Below, in pieces: positions 6,074 to 20,851 of a DNA stretch of 64,000 nt; positions within the stretch are counted from its first letter, which is position 1; each line of letters opens with the position of its first letter. The notes under the pieces were generated by a model, which did no database searches, had not been told where the DNA came from, and was given only the letters and a program-made list of their open reading frames with translations. A program made the translations under genes and the position numbers. Origin of the DNA: Pseudomonadota bacterium (GTDB lineage: Bacteria > Pseudomonadota > Gammaproteobacteria > GCA-002705445 > GCA-002716945); NCBI GenBank assembly GCA_036140295.1, contig JAYZYL010000002.1, forward strand, positions 440 to 64,439. Direction: 5' to 3'.

Positions 6074-6199
6074 TTAATCTTTGTCCTTAATCTGCCTTAT
6101 GGATTCATTATACCTACGAAATAGTAAAAATAAATTCAAAAGCATTACGCCTATTACAATACTGTATGATGAGAAAATATATATAAAATATTGTGCCAT
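6074..6199 (-). CDS. ccmD: Heme exporter protein CcmD (41 aa, not in ORF track)
   Basis: Manual translation of the minus strand gives MAQYFIYIFSSYSIVIGVMLLNLFLLFRRYNESIRQIKDKD*. It has a single TM helix and a basic tail, and ends 5 nt before the ccmE start. Size and position fit CcmD. Confidence 0.5.
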   Translation of the reverse strand: MAQYFIYIFSSYSIVIGVMLLNLFLLFRRYNESIRQIKDKD

Positions 6200-6468
6200 T
6201 TAGGTGATATTATATATCATCATGGATAAAAGTGGTTATAAAAGAAAGAATACTAGAAGCAGTAATATTACAAGGGGTATTTTAGCAATAATACTCCTGT
6301 TCCCTCTCATATGGTTAATTGTTGTAATTATTAAGAATCTTTTATAAATATTTAGTTATCTAAAGTGTCTTTCCCGGCAAATTATCTATAATTTAAAACT
6401 TGCACTTATCTGTATATAGGATGATGATATTGTTATAAACACATGTTTGTTGTGAGAGAAATATAGAT

Positions 6469-6813
6469 ATGAATACTATTAAAGTAGATGGTAAAAATAT
6501 CGCTATAAATGAACAGGGTTATCTTCTCAATTTAGATGAATGGTCCGAAGCATATACAAAGGAAATTGCTAAAAAGGATAATATTGAATTATATAATGAT
6601 CACTGGGAAATAATTTTCTATTTTCGTGAATACTATCATGAGAATGACGCATCACCTACAATGCATCAAATGATTGTAAATTTAATGCCTAAAAATATTA
6701 AATTTCATGATAAGAAAAAATATGAAAAACATATCTATTCTCTGTTTCCATCAGATCCAATAAGAGAGATTTGTAAGTTAGCAGGACTTCCTATGCCAGA
6801 AGCTGATACTTAA
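6469..6813 (+). CDS. DsrC/TusE-family sulfur-relay-like protein (lacks the penultimate Cys)
   Basis: 114 aa with N-terminal G.L....W and YYHEN...SPTM patterns. The C-terminal arm ICKLAGLPMPEADT aligns with DsrC CK(I/L)AGLPKPTGCV. Confidence 0.8.
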   Translation: MNTIKVDGKNIAINEQGYLLNLDEWSEAYTKEIAKKDNIELYNDHWEIIFYFREYYHENDASPTMHQMIVNLMPKNIKFHDKKKYEKHIYSLFPSDPIREICKLAGLPMPEADT

Positions 6814-7149
6814 TGGGAAAATCTAATCTGTAAAGATTTATTGACTCATTCTAAATTTAATATAAAATTATGTTTAGGATGAAAAAGAAGGATTCTCATT
6901 TATTTCCAACATCTATTCAGCATAATAACCATGACCATGATTGTGGTTGTGTTAAATGTTACTTTAATGAGATCACTCTTGGTCCAAAAATTGAGTTTGT
7001 ATGGATAATAGAATATTTTTTAAGATTTATTATACAAAATTCAGATATAAATAACTTAAGACCATCCAGGCTCTTTAGTTCCTCTTACCCAAGATCACCT
7101 CCTTTATAAAATTAATCATTTAAAAAATTAATTTATTAAGGAGATTTTT

Positions 7150-9096
7150 ATGTATAAATATACATTACTGGTCCCTCTATTGATTATATGTGCAAATGTC
7201 TCGTTTGGTGAGACGATAAGTGATGTAGATGTGTCTTCACCATTATTTATAAACTCTGTAAATGAGAATAAGTATCCTGTTCATATAATTGGGAAAGAGG
7301 AGATAAATACTTATCAAAGTATAGGAAATAATATAGAAAACTTGTCTGGCGTTTCCAATGCAGATTATGGTATAGCAATAGGTCAACCTGTGATACGTGG
7401 TTTAACAGGTGATAGGACTAGATTGCTCTCAGATGGAGTTCAAATAAATGACCTAAGTCATATTAGTGGAGATCATTCCAACAATGTGAATTTAAATAAC
7501 ATCTCATATATTGAGATTTTCAAAGGTCCCTCTGCTTTATTTAGCTATGGAGCAACAAGTGGTGGAATTATAAATGTAGTCTCAGACATATTCTCAAATA
7601 AAAAATATTATAGTAAATTTAAACTAGATTATTTAACGGTAAACAATGGATATGGACATAATTTACTATTTAAGGAATATTTGCTAGATACAAATCTATT
7701 TTTTTCATTTAGTAATAAACATCTGGATAATTATAGTCTTCCAGACGGCGCATTATTTGAAGATGGTGTCAAAAAAAGAACTAAATCAAACTCAGATTAT
7801 AAAAACCAAAATATTAAACTAGGCTTATCCTTCCCGAGAGAATGGGGATATTTTGGTATAGCCTTTGAAAATACTGATGGTATTTATGGAATACCATTCC
7901 ATGCCGAGGAAGAAGAGGAAGAAGAGGAAGAAGAGGAACATAGAATCTTCTCAAAAATAGAGTCAGAAACCTTTACCTTGAAAGGGAGGTACAACAAGAT
8001 CATATTTTTTAATTCTATTGATTATTTCTACAGAGATTCTAATTATTTCTTGAAAGAGCATGAAGAAGATGGATCTGCATCTTTGAATAATAATAGTAAA
8101 GAACTTTCTATAAAACTTGATCTAGATGATGACAAATACGAAAAGAAATTACTCTTTCAATATGGTCACAGAAAATCTCCAATGACAGATGCTTATCTTC
8201 CCTCATCAGAGTCCTACGAAAGATCTATCGCTTACTTTGCAAGAACAAAAAATAAACCATATGAAATTGATTTTGCTGGGCGGTATGATTCTAATTCTAG
8301 AGATAGCAATAGTCAACGCTACGGAGATACATCTTTGAGCTTTGCAACAAGTTACTCCAAAAAGCTTAATCAATCTCTTTTTTATACTGTTGGGTATGCT
8401 CACACATCAAGAAGCCCAGCCATATCAGAATTGTTTGCTAATGGTGTTCATGGACCTACTCAAAGATATGAGAGAGGAAATAATAGACTTACTAGGGAAG
8501 TTTCAAGAAATATTGAATTAGGCTTACAGTATGCTGTAAATGATATTAATATAGATCTTAATTTATACAGAAATAATATTAATGATTTTATTTTCTTGAG
8601 TGACCAATCTACTACCACTAGCGGCAAAACTGATGCTAATTGGAGCCAAAAAAATGCTGTCTTTCAGGGGTTTGAAATATCCTTATCTAAAGAATACATC
8701 ATTGACAGGGGCGTTATTCAAATAAAATTAAGTAGAGATGATATTTCTGCAATTTTTGACGATAACACTTATATTCCAAGAGTCACGCCAGCCAGAAATA
8801 TTCTGTCTGCTAGATATGATGATAATGATAATACTAAATACTCATTAGATTTAATTCATGCTGAATCACAAGGAGATTTCTCATCGATTGAAGCGAAAAC
8901 AAACTCTTACATAAATCTAAATGTTGGGTTTTCTAAGATAATCCCTATAGGTCCTGATCAAAATATTACTTTAGACATTCATGCTAATAATATTCTGAAT
9001 AAAACTATAAGAAATCATGAATCATTTGTTAAGGATAATGTTCCTACACCAGGTGCCAATTTTGGAATGGTTATTAATTTTGACTATAAACTTTAG
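7150..9096 (+). CDS. TonB-dependent outer-membrane receptor (metal-type, substrate unknown)
   Basis: Signal peptide, plug domain (VIRGLTGDRTRLLSDGVQINDLSHISGDH...EIFKGPSALFSYGATSGGIINVVS) and a long beta-barrel. AAGGAG Shine-Dalgarno 6 nt upstream. Confidence 0.85.
   Translation: MYKYTLLVPLLIICANVSFGETISDVDVSSPLFINSVNENKYPVHIIGKEEINTYQSIGNNIENLSGVSNADYGIAIGQPVIRGLTGDRTRLLSDGVQINDLSHISGDHSNNVNLNNISYIEIFKGPSALFSYGATSGGIINVVSDIFSNKKYYSKFKLDYLTVNNGYGHNLLFKEYLLDTNLFFSFSNKHLDNYSLPDGALFEDGVKKRTKSNSDYKNQNIKLGLSFPREWGYFGIAFENTDGIYGIPFHAEEEEEEEEEEEHRIFSKIESETFTLKGRYNKIIFFNSIDYFYRDSNYFLKEHEEDGSASLNNNSKELSIKLDLDDDKYEKKLLFQYGHRKSPMTDAYLPSSESYERSIAYFARTKNKPYEIDFAGRYDSNSRDSNSQRYGDTSLSFATSYSKKLNQSLFYTVGYAHTSRSPAISELFANGVHGPTQRYERGNNRLTREVSRNIELGLQYAVNDINIDLNLYRNNINDFIFLSDQSTTTSGKTDANWSQKNAVFQGFEISLSKEYIIDRGVIQIKLSRDDISAIFDDNTYIPRVTPARNILSARYDDNDNTKYSLDLIHAESQGDFSSIEAKTNSYINLNVGFSKIIPIGPDQNITLDIHANNILNKTIRNHESFVKDNVPTPGANFGMVINFDYKL
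7906..7938 (+). repeat. Perfect (GAG GAA GAA)n trinucleotide/9-nt repeat encoding Glu11 inside the TonB-dependent receptor
   Basis: gaggaagaa x3 plus gaggaa read directly from the sequence. It is translated as H-A-E11-H. Confidence 0.95.
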
Positions 9097-9139
9097 TCCT
9101 GTTAATTATATTAATTAGTAAAAAGAGGTGGAATATTAT

Positions 9140-9162
9140 TAATGGCTATGGGTGAACTATGA
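9140..9162. repeat. attL-like copy of the tRNA-Met 3' end
   Basis: aatggctatgggtg (9140-9153) is identical to 13402-13415. The following aactatgaa matches gacttgaa with 1 mismatch and a 1-nt indel. Confidence 0.75.
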
Positions 9163-9195
9163 ATGAATATATAATGATTTTAAATGGAGGTAGAT

Positions 9196-9564
9196 ATGTA
9201 TAAATTGTTTGTTATTTTAATATTATGGATATTTTTTATTCCAAGCCTTTATGCAGAAAACTATATTGCATCAAGACAAGAATTGTGGTTTTCAGATTCG
9301 AGTTATTATAAAACATCACATCACATAAAAATTGGTAAAAGAGTTATGTTTAATAATTATGATTTTTTTGGTGAAGTAGGTATTGGCGAAGATATTGATG
9401 AAGGCACTCCAGTAGGTTCTGGGTCATCATTTGATTATATTAGATTTGGAGTTAGTAAAACTTTCTTTGATTCTTTTAAAGTTAATGTTAATTATCGTAG
9501 TAAGATGAAATCAGATGATAGAGACCTTAACTGGATTGTCATTAATACTAAATATAAATTTTAG
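9196..9564 (+). CDS. Hypothetical exported protein (OMP-like C-terminus)
   Basis: GGAGG lies 5 nt upstream of the ATG at 9196, so the ORF-track start at 9184 is probably inside the SD. Signal peptide MYKLFVILILWIFFIPSLYA/ENY. Ends in ...INTKYKF. Confidence 0.45.
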   Translation: MYKLFVILILWIFFIPSLYAENYIASRQELWFSDSSYYKTSHHIKIGKRVMFNNYDFFGEVGIGEDIDEGTPVGSGSSFDYIRFGVSKTFFDSFKVNVNYRSKMKSDDRDLNWIVINTKYKF

Positions 9565-9566
9565 TT

Positions 9567-9585
9567 GGACATCTTCAGATGCTCC
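9567..9585. terminator. Weak imperfect hairpin between convergent ORFs
   Basis: GGACATC-TTCA-GATG(C)TCC. Short stem with one bulge and no clear U-tract. Confidence 0.2.
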
Positions 9586-9594
9586 TTAAAACAC

Positions 9595-12500
9595 CTATCG
9601 ACATCTTGACAAGATATCATCTAACCATTTCTGTTGTTTGGGGCTTAAGGATTCGCCTTTTTCCAATCTTTTCATCACATTACCGCCTGGCTTTGTAAAA
9701 TCACGTTCTTTATTACTCATGATGTCTTTCTTGCGACAATCTTCTATTTCTTGGAGCAGTGATTTAACATCAGATTCTGATATTGATTTTGTCATTTTTG
9801 TTTTTCCTGAAGTTTTATCAGAGTTATCATTTGCTTTGAGATATTGGTCTATAAAATATTGATCATAATTCTTTATCCAATTACATTTTGTTACATGGCA
9901 TTTAAAATAGCCACCAAAACCATAAAATTTTTTGCCTGGTCTTCTTACGCTTCTAGAATGAAACACGACATCTGGGCTTCCACACTCGGGACATGGTGGG
10001 TTTTCTTTTCCAGCTAAAGCTTCAATGCTTGACCCTGATCTCTTACCCTTTCTATAAATCTCAAGTTGAGCTGATTGAAGTCCAATTTTATTATTAATCG
10101 TCCGCAACATTGTTTCTTCTGAGTTGTTATGAGATAAAGCATTAAGAGATCCTACCCAAAATATATCATTGTCGATCCATATATATTTTTGATGCATTTC
10201 ATACCTAAGATCAATAATTGCTCCAAGGTCTATTAATAACTGATAGGCTTTATATGATTGAGAAGGGTTCCTCATATCTGGAGGTCTGATAACGCATTTA
10301 ATTATGACGCCTTCCTCTGTTTTTTTTCGTATTATATCAGCCCACCATGCCACCCTTTTTTCGGTACAAAAAGGTGAATAAATTATAATCCATTTCTTTG
10401 CTTTATGGAGATCTGGCTTCAGAGTTTCATAAAAGGTTTTCTCATCACATGTAGTTACCTCTCTATCTTTGTATTTGGTTGTTGATACAGGTTTATAATC
10501 AGCCACATCTTTGCTTAATGTTTTTGGAGACAACTCCACTACTTCGCTAAGCTTTTTTTCAACACCTTTTTCTTGAATATCTATTAAAATATCTTTCATG
10601 AGTGCAGTTTGTTTTAGTCTTTCTTCCATATATTTAATATTCGCAAAGGTTATTAAAAAGCCTTTAGCTCGACTTAATGCTACATTCATGACTTTGAAGT
10701 CGTTAAACATTCCCCCTATCCATGGTAGACCATATGTCTCAACTGTATCGAAAATTATGATATCCTTTTCATTGCCCTGAAATCTATGTACTGTTCCGCA
10801 TTCAATATTTTTTAATTCTTCATCATCTAAAATCTTTCTGATAATTTTTGCTTGAGTATTATAAGGTGTTATTATTCCAAGATCTTTTGGTGATTTTATA
10901 AAATTACTCTTTACAAGACTTCGTACAAGATTTCTAATCGCGATAGCATGAAGAAGGTTATACTTAGAATTACTTCTTGGTTTTACATTGCAAAATGGCT
11001 GGTATTCTTGTGTATCAATGAGAATAAGAGAACTAGAAAAAAAATTAGGGTATGAATCTCTTAGCTTACCGGCTTTTTTATCAGTTATTAGACTTCCATA
11101 ATAAAATCTATTATTAATTAAATCGCAAATTACTTTCTCCATTCTGTACTGCACTTTGAGCTGAACAAGATTGTCGGGAAGAGTATTTGTTTCAACTGAG
11201 TCAGCTACGCCTGATTTTTGAAAAACGTCTATTGCCATCCATCTTTTAACAACCTCCTGTTTATCTTCATCAATATAGCTTTTATTCAAAGATTGGACAA
11301 TTGGTGGCAGCTGTTTAAAATCTCCTGTAACAGTAACTTTCTGACTAGCTAACCCTGAAACATAAAAAACTAATGGTAAATGAAGCATTGATGACTCATC
11401 GATGACAACGAGATCATATGTCTTAAATATTTTCCATTTCAAATAAGTCTGAGTTGCAGTTGCTGCTGTAACTCTACATTTATCTAAGAGTTCAGTTTTC
11501 TTCTTATCAATCTCATTTTGAACTTTTGTAATTTCACTAGTAATATCAGATATGTCTTTTTGCATTATGTCGCGTTTTGATTCAACAGGTTCAATACTTA
11601 AATTCTTAACTTTTTTTTCTAACTCTGATTCAGATTTTTTTAATCTTTTAAGATTTCCAGAAAGTTCTTTTAATTTCTCAGGTGCATTCTTTAATTTAAC
11701 TTTTAACTCATTAAGCTCCATTTTAAGTTCGCTTATATGCCTTTCAATGTCCTCTTTGCTTCTTTTGCCAGCGAACCAGTTTGCTACAGTACCTATAACA
11801 GTACTAGATCTAGCAGTGCCCAACTCTTTTTTAAGATCATTAATTGAACGTTCTTTAGTAGTAATTTCAGGTCCAGATTCATTTATGAATAATTTAAAGT
11901 CTTCTATTTCTGCTTCTCTATCAATATTTTCTTTTTTCATTTTTTGATATTTATAATAATTGTTTATGTCATCATCAATAGGTTTTATTTTTTCGTATAA
12001 TTTGTCTAACTTCTTTGTTAGTTCAGTGATTTTCATCTGAAGTGGCGTAGTAAGACGTTTGACCACTTCATCTAAATCAATATATTCTTTATACTTTCGA
12101 GATACCTCCTCATTGATAATTTTTCCAAATCTTAAGACAGAAGCTTCTTTGAAATCCTTATCTTTAATTTTTGTTAGCTGATCACATAAACTTTTTAATA
12201 AAATATCCACTGCCATATTGGTATTTGATACAAGCAATATTTTTTTATTATTCTTATAAAAATAATAAATGACCTCTGCCAATGTAAAGGTTTTACCTGT
12301 ACCCGGCGGCCCCCATAAGTAAAGCAATTCTGATCCCGATATCACTTTTAACGCATTAAACTGGTTGTCATTAAGGCTCTCGGGTTTTTCTTTTAAGGAT
12401 GAATTGATTTTTATTTTTGATTTTTTTAAACCTAAAGTTTTAAGGGCCAAGTCGGTATTAAATACACTCACATCATCTATTTTAGATACATTTTCTAATC

Positions 12501-12888
12501 TATCTTTTAGTCTCTCCAGCAGAAAGGAATTATTGGTTTTTATTGATGCATGAGCTATTTCTTTTCCTAAATTTTCATTTATTGAAATCCTAATATCCCT
12601 TCCAATAATCGATACTATTGACCCCGTATAAGTGTTCTCACCAACTATAAATTCAATTGGTGTTTCTTCGTTCAGTAATAATGAGTCATCTAGCTTAAAG
12701 CTATAAATGTATTCGTTAGCTACATGATCCTGCAAATTACCATTGGTTATTTCAATGGAATTTTCTATTGCCGTTTTTTTTACACAATCTATCTCAATCT
12801 CTAATGCTTCACCCATTTTGATAAATGCGGGATCAATCTTCGTTAGATCTTCATCTTCAGCCTTCTTTAAATCCTCATCTTGAGCCAT
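9595..12888 (-). CDS. SF1 (Upf1/DNA2-like, COG1112-type) helicase fused to an HKD/PLD nuclease and a topo-type C4 zinc ribbon; Mokosh type II (MkoC)-like
   Basis: Helicase motifs in order: Walker A LWGPPGTGKTF (nt 12289-12312), DLVVIDESSM, GDFKQLPP, QYRM, ITPYNTQ, VHRFQGNEKD, VALSRAK. HKD motif HQKYIWIDNDIFWVGSLN (nt 10141-10194). Zinc ribbon CPECG...CHVTKC (nt 9883-9993). Confidence 0.85.
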   Translation of the reverse strand: MAQDEDLKKAEDEDLTKIDPAFIKMGEALEIEIDCVKKTAIENSIEITNGNLQDHVANEYIYSFKLDDSLLLNEETPIEFIVGENTYTGSIVSIIGRDIRISINENLGKEIAHASIKTNNSFLLERLKDRLENVSKIDDVSVFNTDLALKTLGLKKSKIKINSSLKEKPESLNDNQFNALKVISGSELLYLWGPPGTGKTFTLAEVIYYFYKNNKKILLVSNTNMAVDILLKSLCDQLTKIKDKDFKEASVLRFGKIINEEVSRKYKEYIDLDEVVKRLTTPLQMKITELTKKLDKLYEKIKPIDDDINNYYKYQKMKKENIDREAEIEDFKLFINESGPEITTKERSINDLKKELGTARSSTVIGTVANWFAGKRSKEDIERHISELKMELNELKVKLKNAPEKLKELSGNLKRLKKSESELEKKVKNLSIEPVESKRDIMQKDISDITSEITKVQNEIDKKKTELLDKCRVTAATATQTYLKWKIFKTYDLVVIDESSMLHLPLVFYVSGLASQKVTVTGDFKQLPPIVQSLNKSYIDEDKQEVVKRWMAIDVFQKSGVADSVETNTLPDNLVQLKVQYRMEKVICDLINNRFYYGSLITDKKAGKLRDSYPNFFSSSLILIDTQEYQPFCNVKPRSNSKYNLLHAIAIRNLVRSLVKSNFIKSPKDLGIITPYNTQAKIIRKILDDEELKNIECGTVHRFQGNEKDIIIFDTVETYGLPWIGGMFNDFKVMNVALSRAKGFLITFANIKYMEERLKQTALMKDILIDIQEKGVEKKLSEVVELSPKTLSKDVADYKPVSTTKYKDREVTTCDEKTFYETLKPDLHKAKKWIIIYSPFCTEKRVAWWADIIRKKTEEGVIIKCVIRPPDMRNPSQSYKAYQLLIDLGAIIDLRYEMHQKYIWIDNDIFWVGSLNALSHNNSEETMLRTINNKIGLQSAQLEIYRKGKRSGSSIEALAGKENPPCPECGSPDVVFHSRSVRRPGKKFYGFGGYFKCHVTKCNWIKNYDQYFIDQYLKANDNSDKTSGKTKMTKSISESDVKSLLQEIEDCRKKDIMSNKERDFTKPGGNVMKRLEKGESLSPKQQKWLDDILSRCR

Positions 12889-12907
12889 GATAAACCCTTA
12901 AATTGTA

Positions 12908-13360
12908 GTGTTTTATCATTATAATAGATTTATGAATAGTATAATAATAATTTTGGGGTTGTTGTTAGTTCTGCTTGTTAGCTCTTATATATCGAGCAAC
13001 AAAAAAATGAGTGTTAGGGTGTCTGAGGGAAAACATATGTTGAGTAAAAATAAAACAACTGATTTACATTTATTGTGTAAAGACTATAAGTTTATAAATC
13101 GTTCAACAAATGAAAAATTTACTTCAGGATATTGGTATTTTTCATTAGAGAGAGCTTCCTCTTTGATTGGAGCTAATATCTATTTTCATAATACCAAGTC
13201 GGAATTATCATACACAGGTGGGATAATAACTAAAGTTGAACAGCAGAAATACAATGAACAAGACCGTATTGTATTTACTTTTGAGTTTAATCAAAAAAAT
13301 ATCGATAAATCATGGCAAGGAGATACAAATCCAAGAGCATGGTACAGTATTGTAAAATGA
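12908..13360 (+). CDS. Hypothetical protein divergent from the helicase gene (start ambiguous)
   Basis: The ORF runs from GTG 12908. ATG 12932 would give a TM-anchored protein (NSIIIILGLLLVLLVSSYI). ATG 13037 is preceded by GAGGGA and would give a soluble 107-aa protein. No family recognised. Confidence 0.4.
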   Translation: MFYHYNRFMNSIIIILGLLLVLLVSSYISSNKKMSVRVSEGKHMLSKNKTTDLHLLCKDYKFINRSTNEKFTSGYWYFSLERASSLIGANIYFHNTKSELSYTGGIITKVEQQKYNEQDRIVFTFEFNQKNIDKSWQGDTNPRAWYSIVK

Positions 13361-13401
13361 GAGCTGATTTTATTGACGTGTAGAGTGATAAATAAGGCCA
13401 A

Positions 13402-13423
13402 AATGGCTATGGGTGGACTTGAA
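13402..13423. repeat. attR-like repeat (3' end of tRNA-Met plus 2 nt)
   Basis: Partner of the repeat at 9140-9162. Confidence 0.75.
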
Positions 13424-13477
13424 CCACCGACCGCAGCGTTATGAGTGCTGTGCTCTAACCAACTGAGCTACATAGCC
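13404..13477 (-). tRNA. tRNA-Met (anticodon CAU, elongator-like)
   Basis: Reverse complement GGCTATGTAGCTCAGTTGGTTAGAGCACAGCACTCATAACGCTGCGGTCGGTGGTTCAAGTCCACCCATAGCCA folds as a cloverleaf and closely resembles E. coli elongator tRNA-Met. No CCA is encoded. tRNA-Ile2 (lysidine) is not formally excluded. Confidence 0.85.
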
Positions 13478-13478
13478 A

Positions 13479-14555
13479 TTAAATATTAAACCTAAAATAA
13501 ATAACATCTCCCTCTTGCACTATATAATCCTTTCCCTCTTGTCTCCATACTCCACTATTTTTTGATCCCTGCTCGCCATTATGTTTTATGTATTCATCGT
13601 AGGCAACTGTTTCTGCTCTTATAAAACCCTTTTGTATATCTGTATGTATAATACCCGAACAGTCTCGTGCATTAAAATCTTTTTTAGCAGACCAAGCCCT
13701 TGTTTCCTTAGGACCTGAGGTAAAAAATGTTTTGAATTGTAATAATTGATAACCCGTATTAATGATCTTATCTAAAGCATATGTATTATCACTCATTTCC
13801 TTTAAAAACTCTTGTTTTTCCCTATCATCTAATTCAGAAATATCCTGTTCAGTTCTGACGTCAATTGTTAAAAGTTTTATCTTACTGTTCAATTTATTCT
13901 GAAAATCTGTAAGATCACTCTGGCTCGTATTGCTATTTACATTAGCAATAACAAACATAGGTTTATTTGTAAGTAACGTCAAATCATTCAATTGTAAGGT
14001 ATCTTCACTAAACTCAAATGTTGATGCAAAATGTCCACTATTTAGATGTTTTAATAATAGATTTAATTCTTCAATTATTGAGTTTTTTGATTTTTGATCA
14101 ACTCTGCTTTTTTCAATCCTAATAATATATTTTTCAATTCTGTTTATATCAGCTAATATAAGTTCAGAATTAATGTCATCAAAATCATCATCAGGGCTCA
14201 GGGCCCCTTTAACGTGAATAATTTCATCATCCTTAAAAAATCTAACAACATGAGCAATAACGTCTGTATTATTGATATGATTTAGAAATTCATTACCAAG
14301 TCCTTCACCTTTTGATGCTCCCTTTATTAGTCCTGCAATATCAACGAATTCAATTGAAGCATTAATAACTTTTTCTGATTTATTTATTTCAGCTAATTTA
14401 TCTAGTCTAGTATCAGGTACCTTTACATATGCAACATTTGGATCAATTGTACAAAATGGATAGTTGCTTGCTGGTATTTTTTGTGATGTTAGTAAATTAA
14501 ATATCGATGATTTTCCAACGTTTGGCATTCCAATGAGTCCACATTTAAATCCCAT
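13479..14555 (-). CDS. ychF: Redox-regulated ATPase YchF
   Basis: GLIGMPNVGKSSIFN P-loop, NYPFCTIDPN, and C-terminal TGS-like region ending GDVIYFRFN. Confidence 0.9.
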   Translation of the reverse strand: MGFKCGLIGMPNVGKSSIFNLLTSQKIPASNYPFCTIDPNVAYVKVPDTRLDKLAEINKSEKVINASIEFVDIAGLIKGASKGEGLGNEFLNHINNTDVIAHVVRFFKDDEIIHVKGALSPDDDFDDINSELILADINRIEKYIIRIEKSRVDQKSKNSIIEELNLLLKHLNSGHFASTFEFSEDTLQLNDLTLLTNKPMFVIANVNSNTSQSDLTDFQNKLNSKIKLLTIDVRTEQDISELDDREKQEFLKEMSDNTYALDKIINTGYQLLQFKTFFTSGPKETRAWSAKKDFNARDCSGIIHTDIQKGFIRAETVAYDEYIKHNGEQGSKNSGVWRQEGKDYIVQEGDVIYFRFNI

Positions 14556-19542: not shown

Positions 19543-19603
19543 AGTAGTATAATATCACATATTACAAACATCGGAGATTGTATTATTTTCATACAGAAAG
19601 ATT

Positions 19604-20851
19604 ATGTCAATTAATGTATTAGGCCTCAATCATAAAACGGCTCCTATAGATATAAGAGAAAAAGTTGTATTTAATAGGGAAGAAATTTCCTTAACTTTGG
19701 GCAAACTTAAAAAAATTAAAGGGGTAAATGAAGTTGTTGTTCTTTCAACTTGCAATAGAACGGAAATCTATACAGAAAATGATTCTGATAATGAGCAAGT
19801 TATACATTGGTTAAATAATAACCAAATTGGTGTCAAAGATTATTTGCCCTACACTTATACTTATTCGCAAAATGATGCGGTAAAACATTTATTCCGTGTA
19901 GCATCCGGCATGGATTCAATGGTAATTGGTGAAACAGAAATACTTGGTCAAGTAAAAGACGCCTATAAATTAGCTAATGAGAATAAATCAATAAATTCAT
20001 CCCTAAAGAGGTTGTTTGAATTTGCTTTCTCTGTAGCTAAAGAAGTTCGCACAAATACTGAAATAGGTTCTAACCCTGTTACATTTATGTTTACATCTAT
20101 AACTTTAATTAAAAAGATTTTTACTTCAGTGGAAGATCAAAAGGCATTACTGGTTGGTTCAGGAGAAATGATAAATCTTGCTATAAAATATTTTCAATCT
20201 AATAAAATAAATCAAATAACATTAACTAGTAGAAATATTGAAAAAGGAAAAGAAGTGGCTGATGAGAATAATTGTAAATTTAGTCGCTTACAGGATGTAG
20301 GAAACATAATTTCTGATTATGATATAATTATTACTTCTACTGCAAGCTCTCTACCTATAATTGGGAAAGGAATGATTGAGAGTTCATTAAAAAAAAGAAC
20401 AAACCAACCTATAGTAATAATAGATCTTGGGGTGCCTAGGGATGTAGAATCTGAAATCAAAGAAATTGATGGAGTTTATCTCTATACCATAGATGATTTG
20501 GGAAAAGTAATAGAAAATAATTATAAAATTAGACAACAAGCTTTTACTCAAGCAGAAAAAATTATTAATTATAAGATAATTGAATTTAAGCATTGGTTAG
20601 CAAATAAGAAATCAGATGAATTTGTTAAAACCTATCGTGAATATGTGGATGATATTACCGATGGCGCTATTATCAAAACAAAAAATATGATTAGTGATGG
20701 TAGAAATGTAGATGAAGCTTTACTATATCTTGCAAATTCTCTGAAAAATAAATTAACTCATGAAACAACATCCAAATTAAAAGAAATTTTTCCTCTGTTG
20801 GATGAATCAGCAAGTCTGCGAATTAAAGAAATTTTAAAAAAAGATAAATGA
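19604..20851 (+). CDS. hemA: Glutamyl-tRNA reductase
   Basis: [23 protein letters not shown] and [10 protein letters not shown]. Confidence 0.9.

What the first reader, a model, noticed from the sequence alone, without database searches (positions are those of the whole stretch)
9140..13423. Direct repeat of the tRNA-Met 3' end brackets a 4.3-kb integrase-less islet
Seen in sequence: the 14-mer AATGGCTATGGGTG at 9140-9153 is identical to 13402-13415, which covers the 3' acceptor/T-arm end of tRNA-Met on the minus strand plus 2 flanking nt. Similarity continues for about 9 more nt (aactatgaa vs gacttgaa; 1 mismatch, 1 indel). The repeat is relatively GC-rich in an AT-rich genome. It lies on the 3' side of the tRNA, which is the geometry left by tRNA-targeting integrative elements (attL/attR). 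Between the repeats are only three ORFs: a small exported protein, the helicase-PLD gene and a small divergent ORF. There is no integrase or excisionase. Inference: this is a decayed or trans-mobilised defence islet inserted between a TonB-dependent receptor gene and the ychF-tRNA-Met unit. The tRNA 5' end is 1 nt from the ychF stop.
Basis: seen in the sequence. Interest (0 to 1): 0.75.

Follow-up and report, generated by a model that had tools for sequence, protein, structure and literature searches.

The report
Integrase-less defence islet at tRNA-Met
A 4.2-kb block of three genes, including a probable anti-phage helicase-nuclease, is bracketed by a duplicated piece of the tRNA-Met gene end, and it sits in a spot where related marine bacteria repeatedly gain and lose small gene cassettes; this kind of genome variation is already known.

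Summary
The repeat is real. About 1.3e-5 copies are expected by chance in 10 kb. Imperfect similarity continues 9 nt into the T-loop.

The distal copy is a real junction. A second metagenome contig (L001) is 100% identical for 10.3 kb, about 94% identical over the last 236 nt, and unrelated beyond 9140. A third contig (L083) ends at 9143.

No same-species empty site was found. In 40 related loci (YchF 54-70% identical) the same site is hypervariable. There are 22 downstream sequence types in 34 loci. There are 11 exact copies of the relatives' own tRNA 3' 12-mer downstream and 0 upstream. Two strain pairs show an occupied versus an empty site. No locus carries an integrase.

The cargo is an Upf1-like helicase fused to a PLD nuclease and a zinc ribbon, resembling type II Mokosh. 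It comes with a conserved 107-aa partner of unknown fold and a small exported beta-barrel-like protein. A homologue in an OM43 genome lies in an integrase-bearing island at tRNA-His.

This is a recombinase-less, att-flanked cassette in a tRNA-anchored additive flexible genomic island. It is a new member of a known kind, of moderate interest.

The parts
9141..9163 (.). Distal direct repeat: a partial copy of the tRNA-Met 3' end, with an exact core at 9141-9154 and an imperfect extension to 9163. It marks the outer boundary of the islet.
   Evidence: L001 becomes unrelated beyond 9140 and L083 ends at 9143.
9196..9564 (+). Small exported protein: 122 aa from the MYKLF start, or 126 aa from 9184. 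It has a signal peptide ending LYA|E and a C-terminal ...YKF. It gives a weak, sub-threshold match to the cyanophage outer-membrane beta-barrel family.
   Evidence: (PF24653, E=5e-4, below the gathering score). Its 5' part holds 11 of the 14 L001/window mismatches; the other 3 lie in or next to the repeat.
9595..12888 (-). A 1097-aa fusion protein: SF1B Upf1-like helicase, single HKD PLD nuclease, C4 zinc ribbon and a C-terminal tail. It resembles type II Mokosh.
   Evidence: Pfam AAA_11, AAA_12 and PLDc_2. PADLOC MkoA 1.2e-64 and MkoC 2e-46. Best PDB sequence hits are NAM7/Upf1, DNA2 and SMUBP-2. Motifs are GPPGTGKT at 193, DE at 497-498, HQKYIWID at 899, and Cys at 966, 969, 997 and 1002. 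All are invariant in 15 homologues.
13037..13360 (+). A 107-aa beta-rich protein of an uncharacterised family, transcribed divergently from the helicase gene. It is a probable functional partner.
   Evidence: A 47%-identical homologue lies in the same divergent position next to the 58%-identical helicase in L128. 172 representative homologues were found. No Pfam family matches. The AF2 model has pLDDT 94. Foldseek found no significant match.
13402..13423 (.). tRNA-proximal direct repeat: the 3' end of tRNA-Met plus 2 flanking nt. It marks the inner boundary of the islet.
13404..13477 (-). Intact tRNA-Met(CAT) gene with no encoded CCA. It is the integration target.
   Evidence: Rfam, 69.6 bits.
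13479..14555 (-). ychF, the conserved core-genome anchor. The ychF-tRNA-Met unit is shared by all 40 relatives.
6208..9140 (.). Flanking block: a DsrC-like gene (6469-6813), orf79 (6870-7109) and a TonB-dependent receptor (7150-9096). It may be an older part of the same variable region, but it has no recognisable second repeat.
   Evidence: In one group of relatives ccmD/ccmE follow tRNA-Met within about 60-300 nt. L083 spans only 6379-9143 and breaks on both sides. No degenerate repeat was found.

Best explanation
The two repeats are the attL/attR-type scars of site-specific recombination at the 3' end of tRNA-Met. The 4,247 bp between the repeat cores (9155-13401) form a horizontally acquired cassette with no recombinase of its own. 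It is one unit of a tRNA-anchored 'additive' flexible genomic island that a whole clade of AT-rich marine Gammaproteobacteria maintains just downstream of the ychF-tRNA-Met unit.

What is shown: the repeat; the junction polymorphism at its outer edge; the clade-wide recurrence of tRNA-end repeats that delimit diverse integrase-less cassettes; and presence/absence polymorphism between near-identical strains of relatives.

What is inferred: a tyrosine-type integrase encoded elsewhere (on a helper element or elsewhere in the chromosome) inserts and excises such cassettes in trans, or carries them along by tandem accretion. The crossover would lie within the 12-14-bp identical core. Homologous recombination between conserved cassette ends then reshuffles cargo.

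The cargo most likely acts as a single-protein anti-phage system of the Mokosh type II kind. The Upf1-like ATP-dependent helicase would sense or translocate on phage nucleic acid and the HKD nuclease would cleave it. The conserved 107-aa neighbour may act as a partner or regulator. The cargo function is inferred from homology only.
For: Repeat: exact 14-mer plus 8/9 extension into the T-loop; 0 of 100 shuffles reproduce it; 1.3e-5 expected. Imperfect similarity continuing beyond the identical core is what attP/attB homology gives, and a target-site duplication would not show it.

Junction in the same lineage: L001 is 100% identical from window 19715 to 9388. It has 14 mismatches confined to 9152-9387 and is unrelated beyond 9140. 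L083 carries the exact receptor protein and stops at 9143.

Clade-level evidence:
- 40 loci share the ychF-tRNA-Met unit.
- 34 loci with at least 80 nt downstream fall into 22 downstream sequence types.
- There are 11 exact copies of the relatives' own 12-nt tRNA end in 89 kb downstream, 0 in 98 kb upstream, 0 in reverse orientation, and 0.005 expected.
- Up to 3 copies occur in tandem, in L103.
- L117 versus L093 is 99% identical on both flanks, with a 985-nt one-gene insert. L106 versus L112 has 100% identical flanks and a 5.09-kb insert. In both pairs the overlap equals the repeat.
- Cassettes with unrelated interiors share conserved ends. L097 and L098 share about 90 nt next to the tRNA and about 86 nt at the distal repeat.
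- No integrase was found in any of these loci or in the window.

Cargo mobility: the 53%-identical helicase homologue also lies downstream of tRNA-Met and ychF in L124. The 39%-identical homologue in OM43 MBRSG12 lies in a 13.4-kb island with a tyrosine integrase next to tRNA-His and a direct repeat of at least 32 nt.

Cargo function: domains and motifs. One homologue sits in a defence island with type I R-M, SIR2 with a HerA-like ATPase, and Fic.

Precedent in the literature:
- Additive islands arise by sequential insertions at a tRNA (PMC3698932).
- Recurring 20-bp tRNA-Lys end repeats delimit islands of 330 bp to 42 kb in Ca. Methylopumilus (PMC10872708).
- Partial tRNAs separate tandem elements and remnants in Prochlorococcus islands (bioRxiv 10.1101/2020.12.28.424599).
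Against: - No empty site and no excised circle was found for the window's own species.
- No candidate recombinase was identified anywhere.
- The islet's GC content (31.15% versus 31.08%) and its tetranucleotide profile (60th percentile) are indistinguishable from the host's.
- The window's cassette ends share no sequence with the conserved ends seen in relatives.
- All relatives are distant, with YchF at most 70% identical. The hotspot evidence is therefore by analogy across a family-level clade.
- The integrase-bearing elements found with a tRNA-Met-like attP (L130-L132) use a longer site of about 45 nt that includes CCA. They have a higher GC content and probably belong to other hosts.
- The 100% / 94% / unrelated mosaic in L001 can also be read as homologous recombination or as a strain-chimeric assembly.
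Confidence: 0.6

Rival explanations
1. The islet is the decayed, now immobile remnant of a once autonomous element that integrated at tRNA-Met and later lost its integrase and replication genes. The tycheposon- or prophage-like parent left only cargo and the two scars. Present-day variation at the site then comes only from homologous recombination using the conserved flanks.
For: - Remnants with partial tRNAs are described in tRNA-linked islands (bioRxiv 10.1101/2020.12.28.424599, read).
- A helicase homologue sits in an intact integrase-bearing island in OM43.
- The islet's composition is fully host-like, which is consistent with long residence.
- The L001 mosaic of 100%, then 94%, then unrelated sequence looks like a homologous-recombination tract.
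Against: - No integrase fragment or pseudogene was seen in the islet or in 89 kb of hotspot sequence from relatives.
- Relatives have cassettes as small as 985 nt with precise repeat boundaries that differ between 99%-identical strains.
- Unrelated cargoes share conserved terminal sequences. Functional ends explain this more easily than independent decay does.
Confidence: 0.28
2. The junction at the distal repeat is an assembly artefact. The MAG contig, or L001, would be a chimera of two strains or loci joined at a short shared sequence, so the islet's left boundary is not a real genomic junction.
For: Three assemblies disagree or break at 9140-9143. Metagenome assemblers break or mis-join where strains differ.
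Against: A repeat of 14-23 nt is shorter than usual assembly k-mers. L083 independently carries the receptor flank up to and 3 nt into the repeat. L001 independently carries the islet up to and through the repeat, with its own 2-nt variant of it. Both sides of the window's junction are therefore each seen in a second assembly. Breaks at this point are what real strain heterogeneity produces.
Confidence: 0.05
3. The repeat is a chance match, or part of a promoter or regulatory element for the small exported-protein gene, and has nothing to do with mobility.
For: The repeat lies 20-40 nt upstream of the orf126 start. Promoter-like hexamers overlap the region, although such matches are no more frequent than in shuffled sequence.
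Against: The chance expectation is 1.3e-5. The repeat is in direct orientation and anchored exactly at the tRNA 3' end. It follows the lineage-specific acceptor-stem sequence in the window and in relatives. The same geometry recurs 11 times downstream and never upstream in relatives.
Confidence: 0.03
4. The repeat is a target-site duplication made by a DDE-type or Tn7-like transposase that targets the tRNA end.
For: Some transposons do home to sites downstream of tRNA genes (general knowledge).
Against: - No transposase and no terminal inverted repeats were found.
- A duplication of 12-14 bp is longer than the 5-bp duplication made by Tn7-type elements (general knowledge).
- Imperfect similarity extends beyond the exact core into the T-loop. 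In L091 and L112 the similarity reaches 21 nt. This is typical of att-site homology and not of target duplications.
Confidence: 0.03

Closest known systems
Additive flexible genomic islands anchored at tRNA genes (Alteromonas, PMC3698932; Ca. Methylopumilus fGI-2 at tRNA-Lys, PMC10872708)
   Same: Sequential insertions occur at one tRNA. Recurring direct repeats of the last 12-20 nt of the tRNA delimit cassettes. Cassette size and content vary widely between strains, from under 1 kb to several kb, and many genes are hypothetical. The host has a streamlined pelagic genome.
   Different: The target here is tRNA-Met next to ychF, in an AT-rich marine gammaproteobacterial clade. The exact core is shorter (12-14 nt). 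The window holds a single repeat and a single cassette, with a defence-type gene. In relatives, unrelated cargoes share conserved cassette ends; I did not check whether the cited papers describe that.
CIMEs (cis-mobilizable elements): att-flanked elements that have lost their integration and transfer genes (definition in PMC6323972)
   Same: The islet is flanked by both recombination-site copies and has no integrase, excisionase or transfer genes. Relatives show tandem arrays that are consistent with accretion.
   Different: No cognate ICE, IME or helper integrating at this site was found. It is untested whether the repeats are still functional att sites. CIMEs are mainly described in Firmicutes, in connection with ICEs.
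Tycheposons and their remnants in Prochlorococcus genomic islands (bioRxiv 10.1101/2020.12.28.424599)
   Same: Both involve marine streamlined hosts, tRNA-linked islands, partial-tRNA flanks, tandem elements separated by partial tRNAs, degenerate remnants, and defence or niche cargo. tRNA-Met is among the reported target tRNAs (PMC10872708).
   Different: The hallmark tyrosine recombinase and replication module are absent here and in all 40 related loci. The att core is 12-23 nt, against about 40 nt.
Mokosh type II anti-phage system (bioRxiv 10.1101/2022.05.11.491447)
   Same: A single polypeptide carries an N-terminal Upf1-like COG1112-type helicase and a C-terminal PLD nuclease. The ATP-binding and HKD catalytic motifs are intact. 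PADLOC MkoA and MkoC profiles match.
   Different: Only about 40-45% of the PADLOC profile lengths are matched. The protein has an added invariant C4 zinc ribbon, recognised as Zn_ribbon_Top1 in most homologues, and a C-terminal tail. Its two closest lineages have a conserved divergent 107-aa neighbour. No phage assay has been done.
P4-type integrase satellites or prophages that integrate in tRNA genes (for example L130 from IMG/VR)
   Same: They target the 3' part of tRNA-Met. Their attP mimics the tRNA 3' end, so integration would leave a partial tRNA repeat.
   Different: L130 carries its own integrase, an AlpA-like gene and replication and morphogenesis genes. Its tRNA mimic runs from the anticodon loop to CCA, about 45 nt. 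The window's islet has none of these genes and a much shorter repeat.

Membership tests
tRNA-anchored additive flexible genomic island | Located immediately 3' of a tRNA gene that stays intact | tested here: met
   The islet starts 1-2 nt after the intact tRNA-Met at 13404-13477.
tRNA-anchored additive flexible genomic island | Direct repeats of the tRNA 3' end delimit the inserted units | tested here: met
   The window has one distal copy at 9141-9163. Relatives have 1-3 copies of their own 12-mer, 11 exact copies downstream against 0 upstream.
tRNA-anchored additive flexible genomic island | The number and content of units differ between strains at the same site | tested here: met
   Shown in relatives: L117/L093 and L106/L112, and 22 downstream types in 34 loci. 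In the window's own lineage there is only indirect evidence, from L001's different continuation and L083's break.
tRNA-anchored additive flexible genomic island | Insertions are mediated by a mobile-element recombinase | tested here: inconclusive
   No integrase was found in the islet, the 64-kb window or the 40 loci. The rest of the genome was not available.
CIME (cis-mobilizable element) | Retains attL and attR | tested here: inconclusive
   Both repeat copies are present with a 14-nt identical core. Whether they still work as recombination sites cannot be tested with sequence tools.
CIME (cis-mobilizable element) | Lacks integration and transfer genes | tested here: met
   Pfam and PADLOC scans of all three ORFs found no integrase, excisionase, relaxase or transfer domain.
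CIME (cis-mobilizable element) | A cognate autonomous element uses the same att site | tested here: not met
   None was found in 40 related loci or in IMG/VR using the window's junction and arm sequences. L130-L132 target tRNA-Met but have a different, longer att site.
Tycheposon | Element-encoded tyrosine recombinase | tested here: not met
Tycheposon | Flanked by a full tRNA and a partial tRNA | tested here: met
Tycheposon | Replication module (primase or replicative helicase) | tested here: not met
   The only helicase is Upf1-like and fused to a PLD nuclease. No primase or replication-initiator domain was found.
Mokosh type II | Upf1-like (COG1112-type) helicase domain with an intact ATP-binding site | tested here: met
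   AAA_11 9e-27 and AAA_12 2.9e-36. Best PDB hits are NAM7/Upf1. Walker A is at 193-200 and DE at 497-498, invariant in the family.
Mokosh type II | PLD-family nuclease with an intact HKD site, C-terminal to the helicase in the same protein | tested here: met
   PLDc_2 at 826-927, E=1.1e-7. HQKYIWID is at 899-906. H899, K901 and D906 are invariant.
Mokosh type II | Full-length match to the curated MkoC model | tested here: inconclusive
   MkoC scores 2e-46 but covers only profile positions 667-1106 of 1136. MkoA scores 1.2e-64 and covers 604-1099 of 1112.
Mokosh type II | Protects against phage, dependent on the ATPase and PLD sites | not testable with these tools
   Requires a plaque assay.
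Integron gene cassette array | IntI integrase with attI, and attC sites at cassette ends | tested here: not met
   No integrase of any kind was found next to the array. The cassettes are delimited by tRNA-end repeats. attC-type folding was not tested.

The most novel reading that the evidence does not exclude
The tRNA-Met site in this gammaproteobacterial clade may be an integron-like cassette platform. A family of very small (about 1-5 kb), recombinase-less gene cassettes with conserved terminal arms would be inserted, stacked and exchanged at a 12-14-bp core in the tRNA 3' end. An as yet unidentified trans-acting recombinase would do this. The window's cassette would deliver a previously undescribed two-gene variant of Mokosh type II: a helicase-PLD-zinc-ribbon protein plus a 107-aa protein of a new fold family.
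Probability: 0.25. Interest if true: 0.65.

Novelty: new member of a known kind. Interest (0 to 1): 0.4.

Why it matters
This is a clean, well-bounded example of how streamlined, largely uncultured marine bacteria acquire defence genes. They receive them in small recombinase-less cassettes stacked at a tRNA end. The evidence includes presence/absence polymorphism between near-identical strains and conserved cassette ends in relatives.

The finding provides exact predicted empty-site and circle-junction sequences that can be searched for in population data. It also flags two uncharacterised cargo components for defence-system work. One is a variant of the Mokosh-like helicase-nuclease that carries a zinc ribbon. 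The other is a widespread 107-aa domain with no Pfam family and no structural relative.

It does not change the current picture of flexible genomic islands. It extends that picture to another lineage and another tRNA.

Tried and rejected
1. A same-species empty site was not found. The exact predicted junction (receptor flank joined to the tRNA) gave 0 hits in metagenome contigs. The second scan showed that the species, with acceptor stem GGCTATG, is absent from that collection. This is therefore no evidence either way.

2. The genome-contig scan with YchF gave only one near relative, L003 at 68% identity. There, tRNA-Met is followed directly by genes that look like nitric-oxide reductase subunits (norB/norC-like by eye, not scanned), with no repeat.

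3. The integrase search used three approaches: phmmer with the OM43 island integrase, catalytic-motif regular expressions (which are leaky), and inspection by eye of all window ORFs of at least 180 aa. Nothing was found.

4. Excised-circle and arm searches in IMG/VR gave 0 hits. The queries were the window's distal repeat copy with its inner arm, its tRNA-proximal junction, and the two conserved arm families of relatives.

5. The compositional test showed no anomaly in the islet.

6. A second degenerate repeat that would bound the TonB-receptor block was not found.

7. The helicase family has no true homologue in IMG/VR, only Walker-A fragments.

8. For the 107-aa protein, the word-indexed search found only the protein itself and the single-sequence AF2 model was poor (pLDDT 55). 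The alignment-based model was good (pLDDT 94), but Foldseek against PDB and BFVD gave nothing below E=0.01.

9. The 106-aa gene next to the helicase homologue in L141 is unrelated to it.

10. The target-duplication, chance and assembly-artefact readings were considered and ranked low (see the rival explanations).
Full report
OBSERVATION

The 14-mer AATGGCTATGGGTG occurs exactly twice in the window, at 9141-9154 and 13402-13415 on the same strand. No dinucleotide-preserving shuffle gave two matches. Base composition predicts 1.3e-5 copies in 10 kb. The repeat finder recovers the pair independently as 18 nt at 94% identity with 4261-nt spacing.

tRNA-Met(CAT) lies at 13404-13477 on the minus strand. 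The proximal copy is therefore the last 12 nt of the tRNA plus two trailing bases. Similarity continues imperfectly for 9 nt into the T-loop. The ychF stop is one base from the tRNA 5' end.

Between the repeat cores lie 4,247 bp with three genes:
- a small exported protein (9196-9564);
- a 1097-aa helicase-PLD protein (9595-12888, minus strand);
- a small divergent ORF that is really 107 aa (13037-13360).

IS THE DISTAL COPY A REAL JUNCTION?

Three independent assemblies bear on this.

- L001 is an ENA metagenome contig. It is 100% identical to the window from 19715 down to 9388. It then has 14 mismatches, all between 9387 and 9152. These fall in the 5' part of the exported-protein gene and in the repeat, where L001 has its own 2-nt variant. 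Beyond 9140 it is unrelated and continues into a lipoprotein-like gene that is absent from the window.
- L083 is an NCBI metagenome contig that encodes the identical TonB-dependent receptor. It covers only window 6379-9143 and so stops three bases into the repeat.
- L002 covers 9459-13394 at 100% identity, which is the islet interior only.

Each side of the window's junction is thus seen in a second assembly, and the population is heterogeneous exactly at the repeat.

RELATIVES

The species itself is missing from the two large collections I could scan. The genome scan gave one relative at 68% YchF identity with no repeat. The predicted empty-site junction gave no hit.

A degenerate pattern spanning the ychF end and the tRNA 5' half gave 40 metagenome loci. 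All have YchF 54-70% identical to the window's, and their acceptor stems are GGTCATG or GGTTATG rather than GGCTATG. In these loci the DNA immediately after tRNA-Met is hypervariable:

- 34 loci with at least 80 nt downstream fall into 22 sequence types.
- Their own tRNA 3' 12-mer (mostly CACCCATGACCA) recurs 11 times in 89 kb downstream and never in 98 kb upstream. It never occurs in reverse orientation. The expected number is 0.005.
- Up to three copies stand in tandem at spacings of about 1.1-1.2 kb, in L103.
- Because the repeat follows each lineage's acceptor-stem sequence, it derives from the tRNA and is not an unrelated motif.

- L117 and L093 are 99.2% identical up to the tRNA end and 98.6% identical after it. 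L117 has an extra 985 nt with one lipoprotein gene, and the two alignments overlap by 17 nt in L093.
- L106 and L112 have 100% identical flanks. L106 has an extra 5.09 kb of glycosyltransferase genes, with a 23-nt overlap.

Junction sequences are modular. The same sequence follows either the tRNA or a downstream repeat in different loci.

Cassettes with unrelated interiors share conserved ends. L097 and L098 share about 90 nt next to the tRNA and about 86 nt at the distal repeat. Two arm families recur upstream of the repeats.

Cargo in relatives includes a Z1/SNF2-type ATPase, an EEP nuclease, a Dam-type methylase, an FkbM methyltransferase, lipoproteins, a two-component system and glycosyltransferases.

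No integrase was found in any of these loci or in the 64-kb window. The window otherwise encodes housekeeping genes.

EXTENT OF THE VARIABLE REGION

In the GGTTATG group, ccmD-ccmE start about 60-300 nt after tRNA-Met. In the window, homology to that ccmD upstream region begins only near 6190-6207. The receptor, orf79 and DsrC block (6208-9140) is therefore also extra relative to those relatives. L083 isolates exactly that block. I found no second tRNA-end repeat there. At 70% YchF identity, ordinary rearrangement cannot be excluded.

CARGO: THE HELICASE-NUCLEASE

The large protein has AAA_11 and AAA_12 helicase domains and a PLDc_2 domain. Its best solved relatives by sequence are NAM7/Upf1, DNA2 and SMUBP-2. 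It matches PADLOC MkoA (1.2e-64) and MkoC (2e-46), but over only about 40-45% of those profiles.

Its key motifs are Walker A (193-200), DE (497-498), the HKD motif HQKYIWID (899-906) and four cysteines of a zinc ribbon (966, 969, 997, 1002). All are invariant across 15 homologues of 34-58% identity.

This fits the published definition of type II Mokosh, a single protein with an N-terminal Upf1-like helicase and a C-terminal PLD nuclease (bioRxiv 10.1101/2022.05.11.491447). The zinc ribbon and C-terminal tail are additions.

The homologues travel:
- The 53% homologue also lies downstream of tRNA-Met and ychF in a relative, in the opposite orientation and with different neighbours (L124).
- The 39% homologue in OM43 strain MBRSG12 lies in a 13.4-kb island. 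A tyrosine integrase sits next to tRNA-His, and an exact repeat of at least 32 nt of the tRNA end bounds the island.
- Another homologue lies in a defence island with type I restriction-modification, SIR2 with a HerA-like ATPase, and Fic.
- None occurs on IMG/VR contigs.

CARGO: THE 107-AA PROTEIN

It has a 47%-identical homologue in the same divergent position next to the 58%-identical helicase (L128). It belongs to a family of at least 172 cluster representatives. No Pfam model matches the domain. In larger proteins it is fused to resolvase, PIF1-type helicase, HNH or UDG domains.

An alignment-based AlphaFold2 model is confident (pLDDT 94). It has no significant Foldseek match in PDB or BFVD.

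CARGO: THE EXPORTED PROTEIN

It has a signal peptide and a C-terminal aromatic residue. It gives only a sub-threshold match to a cyanophage outer-membrane beta-barrel family.

COMPOSITION

The islet's GC content (31.15% versus 31.08%) and its tetranucleotide distance (60th percentile of equal-sized windows) are ordinary. It also does not argue against exchange within a compositionally similar gene pool.

MECHANISM

The shown facts fit site-specific integration at the tRNA 3' end. These are a short exact core anchored at the tRNA end, imperfect homology extending into the T-loop, precise presence/absence between strains, tandem stacking, and conserved cassette ends.

Because no cassette carries a recombinase, I infer that an enzyme encoded elsewhere acts in trans, or that cassettes ride along by accretion next to a helper. 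Homologous recombination between conserved ends, for which the L001 mosaic is a candidate trace, would then shuffle cargo.

Integrase-bearing elements that mimic the tRNA-Met 3' half do exist. L130 is a 9,255-bp circular element with a P4-type integrase. However, its attP mimic is about 45 nt long and includes CCA. L130 has 40.6% GC, and the related L131 and L132 have 47.3% and 34.7%, so they probably serve other hosts.

The main alternative is that the window's islet is a fixed remnant. I cannot exclude this for this particular islet.

COMPARISON WITH WHAT IS KNOWN

The arrangement matches several described phenomena:
- additive flexible genomic islands, defined by sequential insertions at a tRNA (PMC3698932);
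- recurring 20-bp tRNA-Lys end repeats that delimit islands of 330 bp to 42 kb in Ca. Methylopumilus (PMC10872708);
- CIMEs, which keep attL and attR but have lost their integration genes (PMC6323972);
- partial-tRNA-flanked remnants in Prochlorococcus islands (bioRxiv 10.1101/2020.12.28.424599).

It is not a tycheposon or an integron by their defining genes. I therefore rate it a new member of a known kind.

The less ordinary aspects are the very small recombinase-less cassettes with shared ends across a clade, and the uncharacterised 107-aa partner of the helicase-nuclease.

VERDICT

Interest is moderate (0.4).

Noticed in passing
L001 10676-10730; also L128 179-228, L124 3577-3637 and 3286-3323, L111 (two sites), and L101, L103, L097, L085, L113, L115: A stretch of about 50 nt encoding a lipoprotein signal peptide (MNKILPIILVVVLSGCGG...) recurs at 78-96% nucleotide identity at the start of otherwise unrelated small genes in many tRNA-Met cassettes. 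These belong to lineages whose core proteins are only about 55-70% identical. It may be a conserved 5' module that could serve as a recombination anchor.
   Followed up: partly
window 13037-13360 (+): The 107-aa protein belongs to a widespread family of at least 172 representatives. The family has no Pfam model and a confident predicted fold (pLDDT 94), but no significant structural match. In larger proteins it is fused to resolvase, PIF1-type helicase, HNH or UDG domains. Residues H11, W33, A40, G45, H51, S58, G61 and G62 are near-invariant.
   Followed up: yes
L130 1-9396 (IMGVR_UViG_3300033553_000547): A circular 9,255-bp element with a 141-nt terminal overlap. It carries a P4-type tyrosine integrase, an AlpA-like HTH protein, a replication-type HTH protein, an S49 protease and a 600-aa ORF with no Pfam match. 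Its attP mimics tRNA-Met from the anticodon loop to CCA without being a tRNA gene. This is a satellite-like element that targets tRNA-Met in some other host.
   Followed up: partly
L126 6142-19620 (Methylophilales bacterium MBRSG12, CP011003): A 13.4-kb island at tRNA-His. It holds a tyrosine integrase at 6307-7275, the helicase-PLD-zinc-ribbon homologue at 10001-13552 and an HNH/HIT fusion gene. An exact repeat of at least 32 nt of the tRNA-His 3' end lies at 19589-19620.
   Followed up: partly
window 6208-9140; L083: The DsrC-like, orf79 and TonB-receptor block is assembled as a separate contig elsewhere, with breaks at window 6379 and 9143. In one group of relatives its place is occupied directly by ccmD-ccmE after tRNA-Met. 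It may be an older part of the same variable region, but no second repeat was found.
   Followed up: partly
L133-L140 (for example L133 4574-5561): Homologues (66-68% identity) of the L001 lipoprotein lie directly downstream of a tRNA-Ala(TGC) gene next to a DsrC-like gene. They are followed by different genes in different contigs, either PhyH or methyltransferases. This is a second tRNA-adjacent variable spot in related genomes.
   Followed up: no
window about 7900-7940 (within the TonB-dependent receptor gene 7150-9096): The receptor contains an uninterrupted run of 11 glutamates (…FHAEEEEEEEEEEEHRIF…). This is unusual for a TonB-dependent receptor barrel.
   Followed up: no
L144 1398-13392; L141 1-15027: Other helicase-PLD-zinc-ribbon homologues sit beside a 2112-aa DEAD/Helicase_C/MZB protein and a UvrD helicase (L144). 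Another sits inside a type I R-M locus with embedded SIR2 and DUF87/HerA-like genes, followed by Fic (L141). These neighbourhoods are consistent with a defence role.
   Followed up: no
relatives L084-L123, immediately 3' of each tRNA-end core: Most cores, both the tRNA end and the downstream repeats, are followed after 0-3 variable bases by AATCT(A/G). The window's two copies lack this motif. It may be part of the recombination site in those lineages.
   Followed up: no
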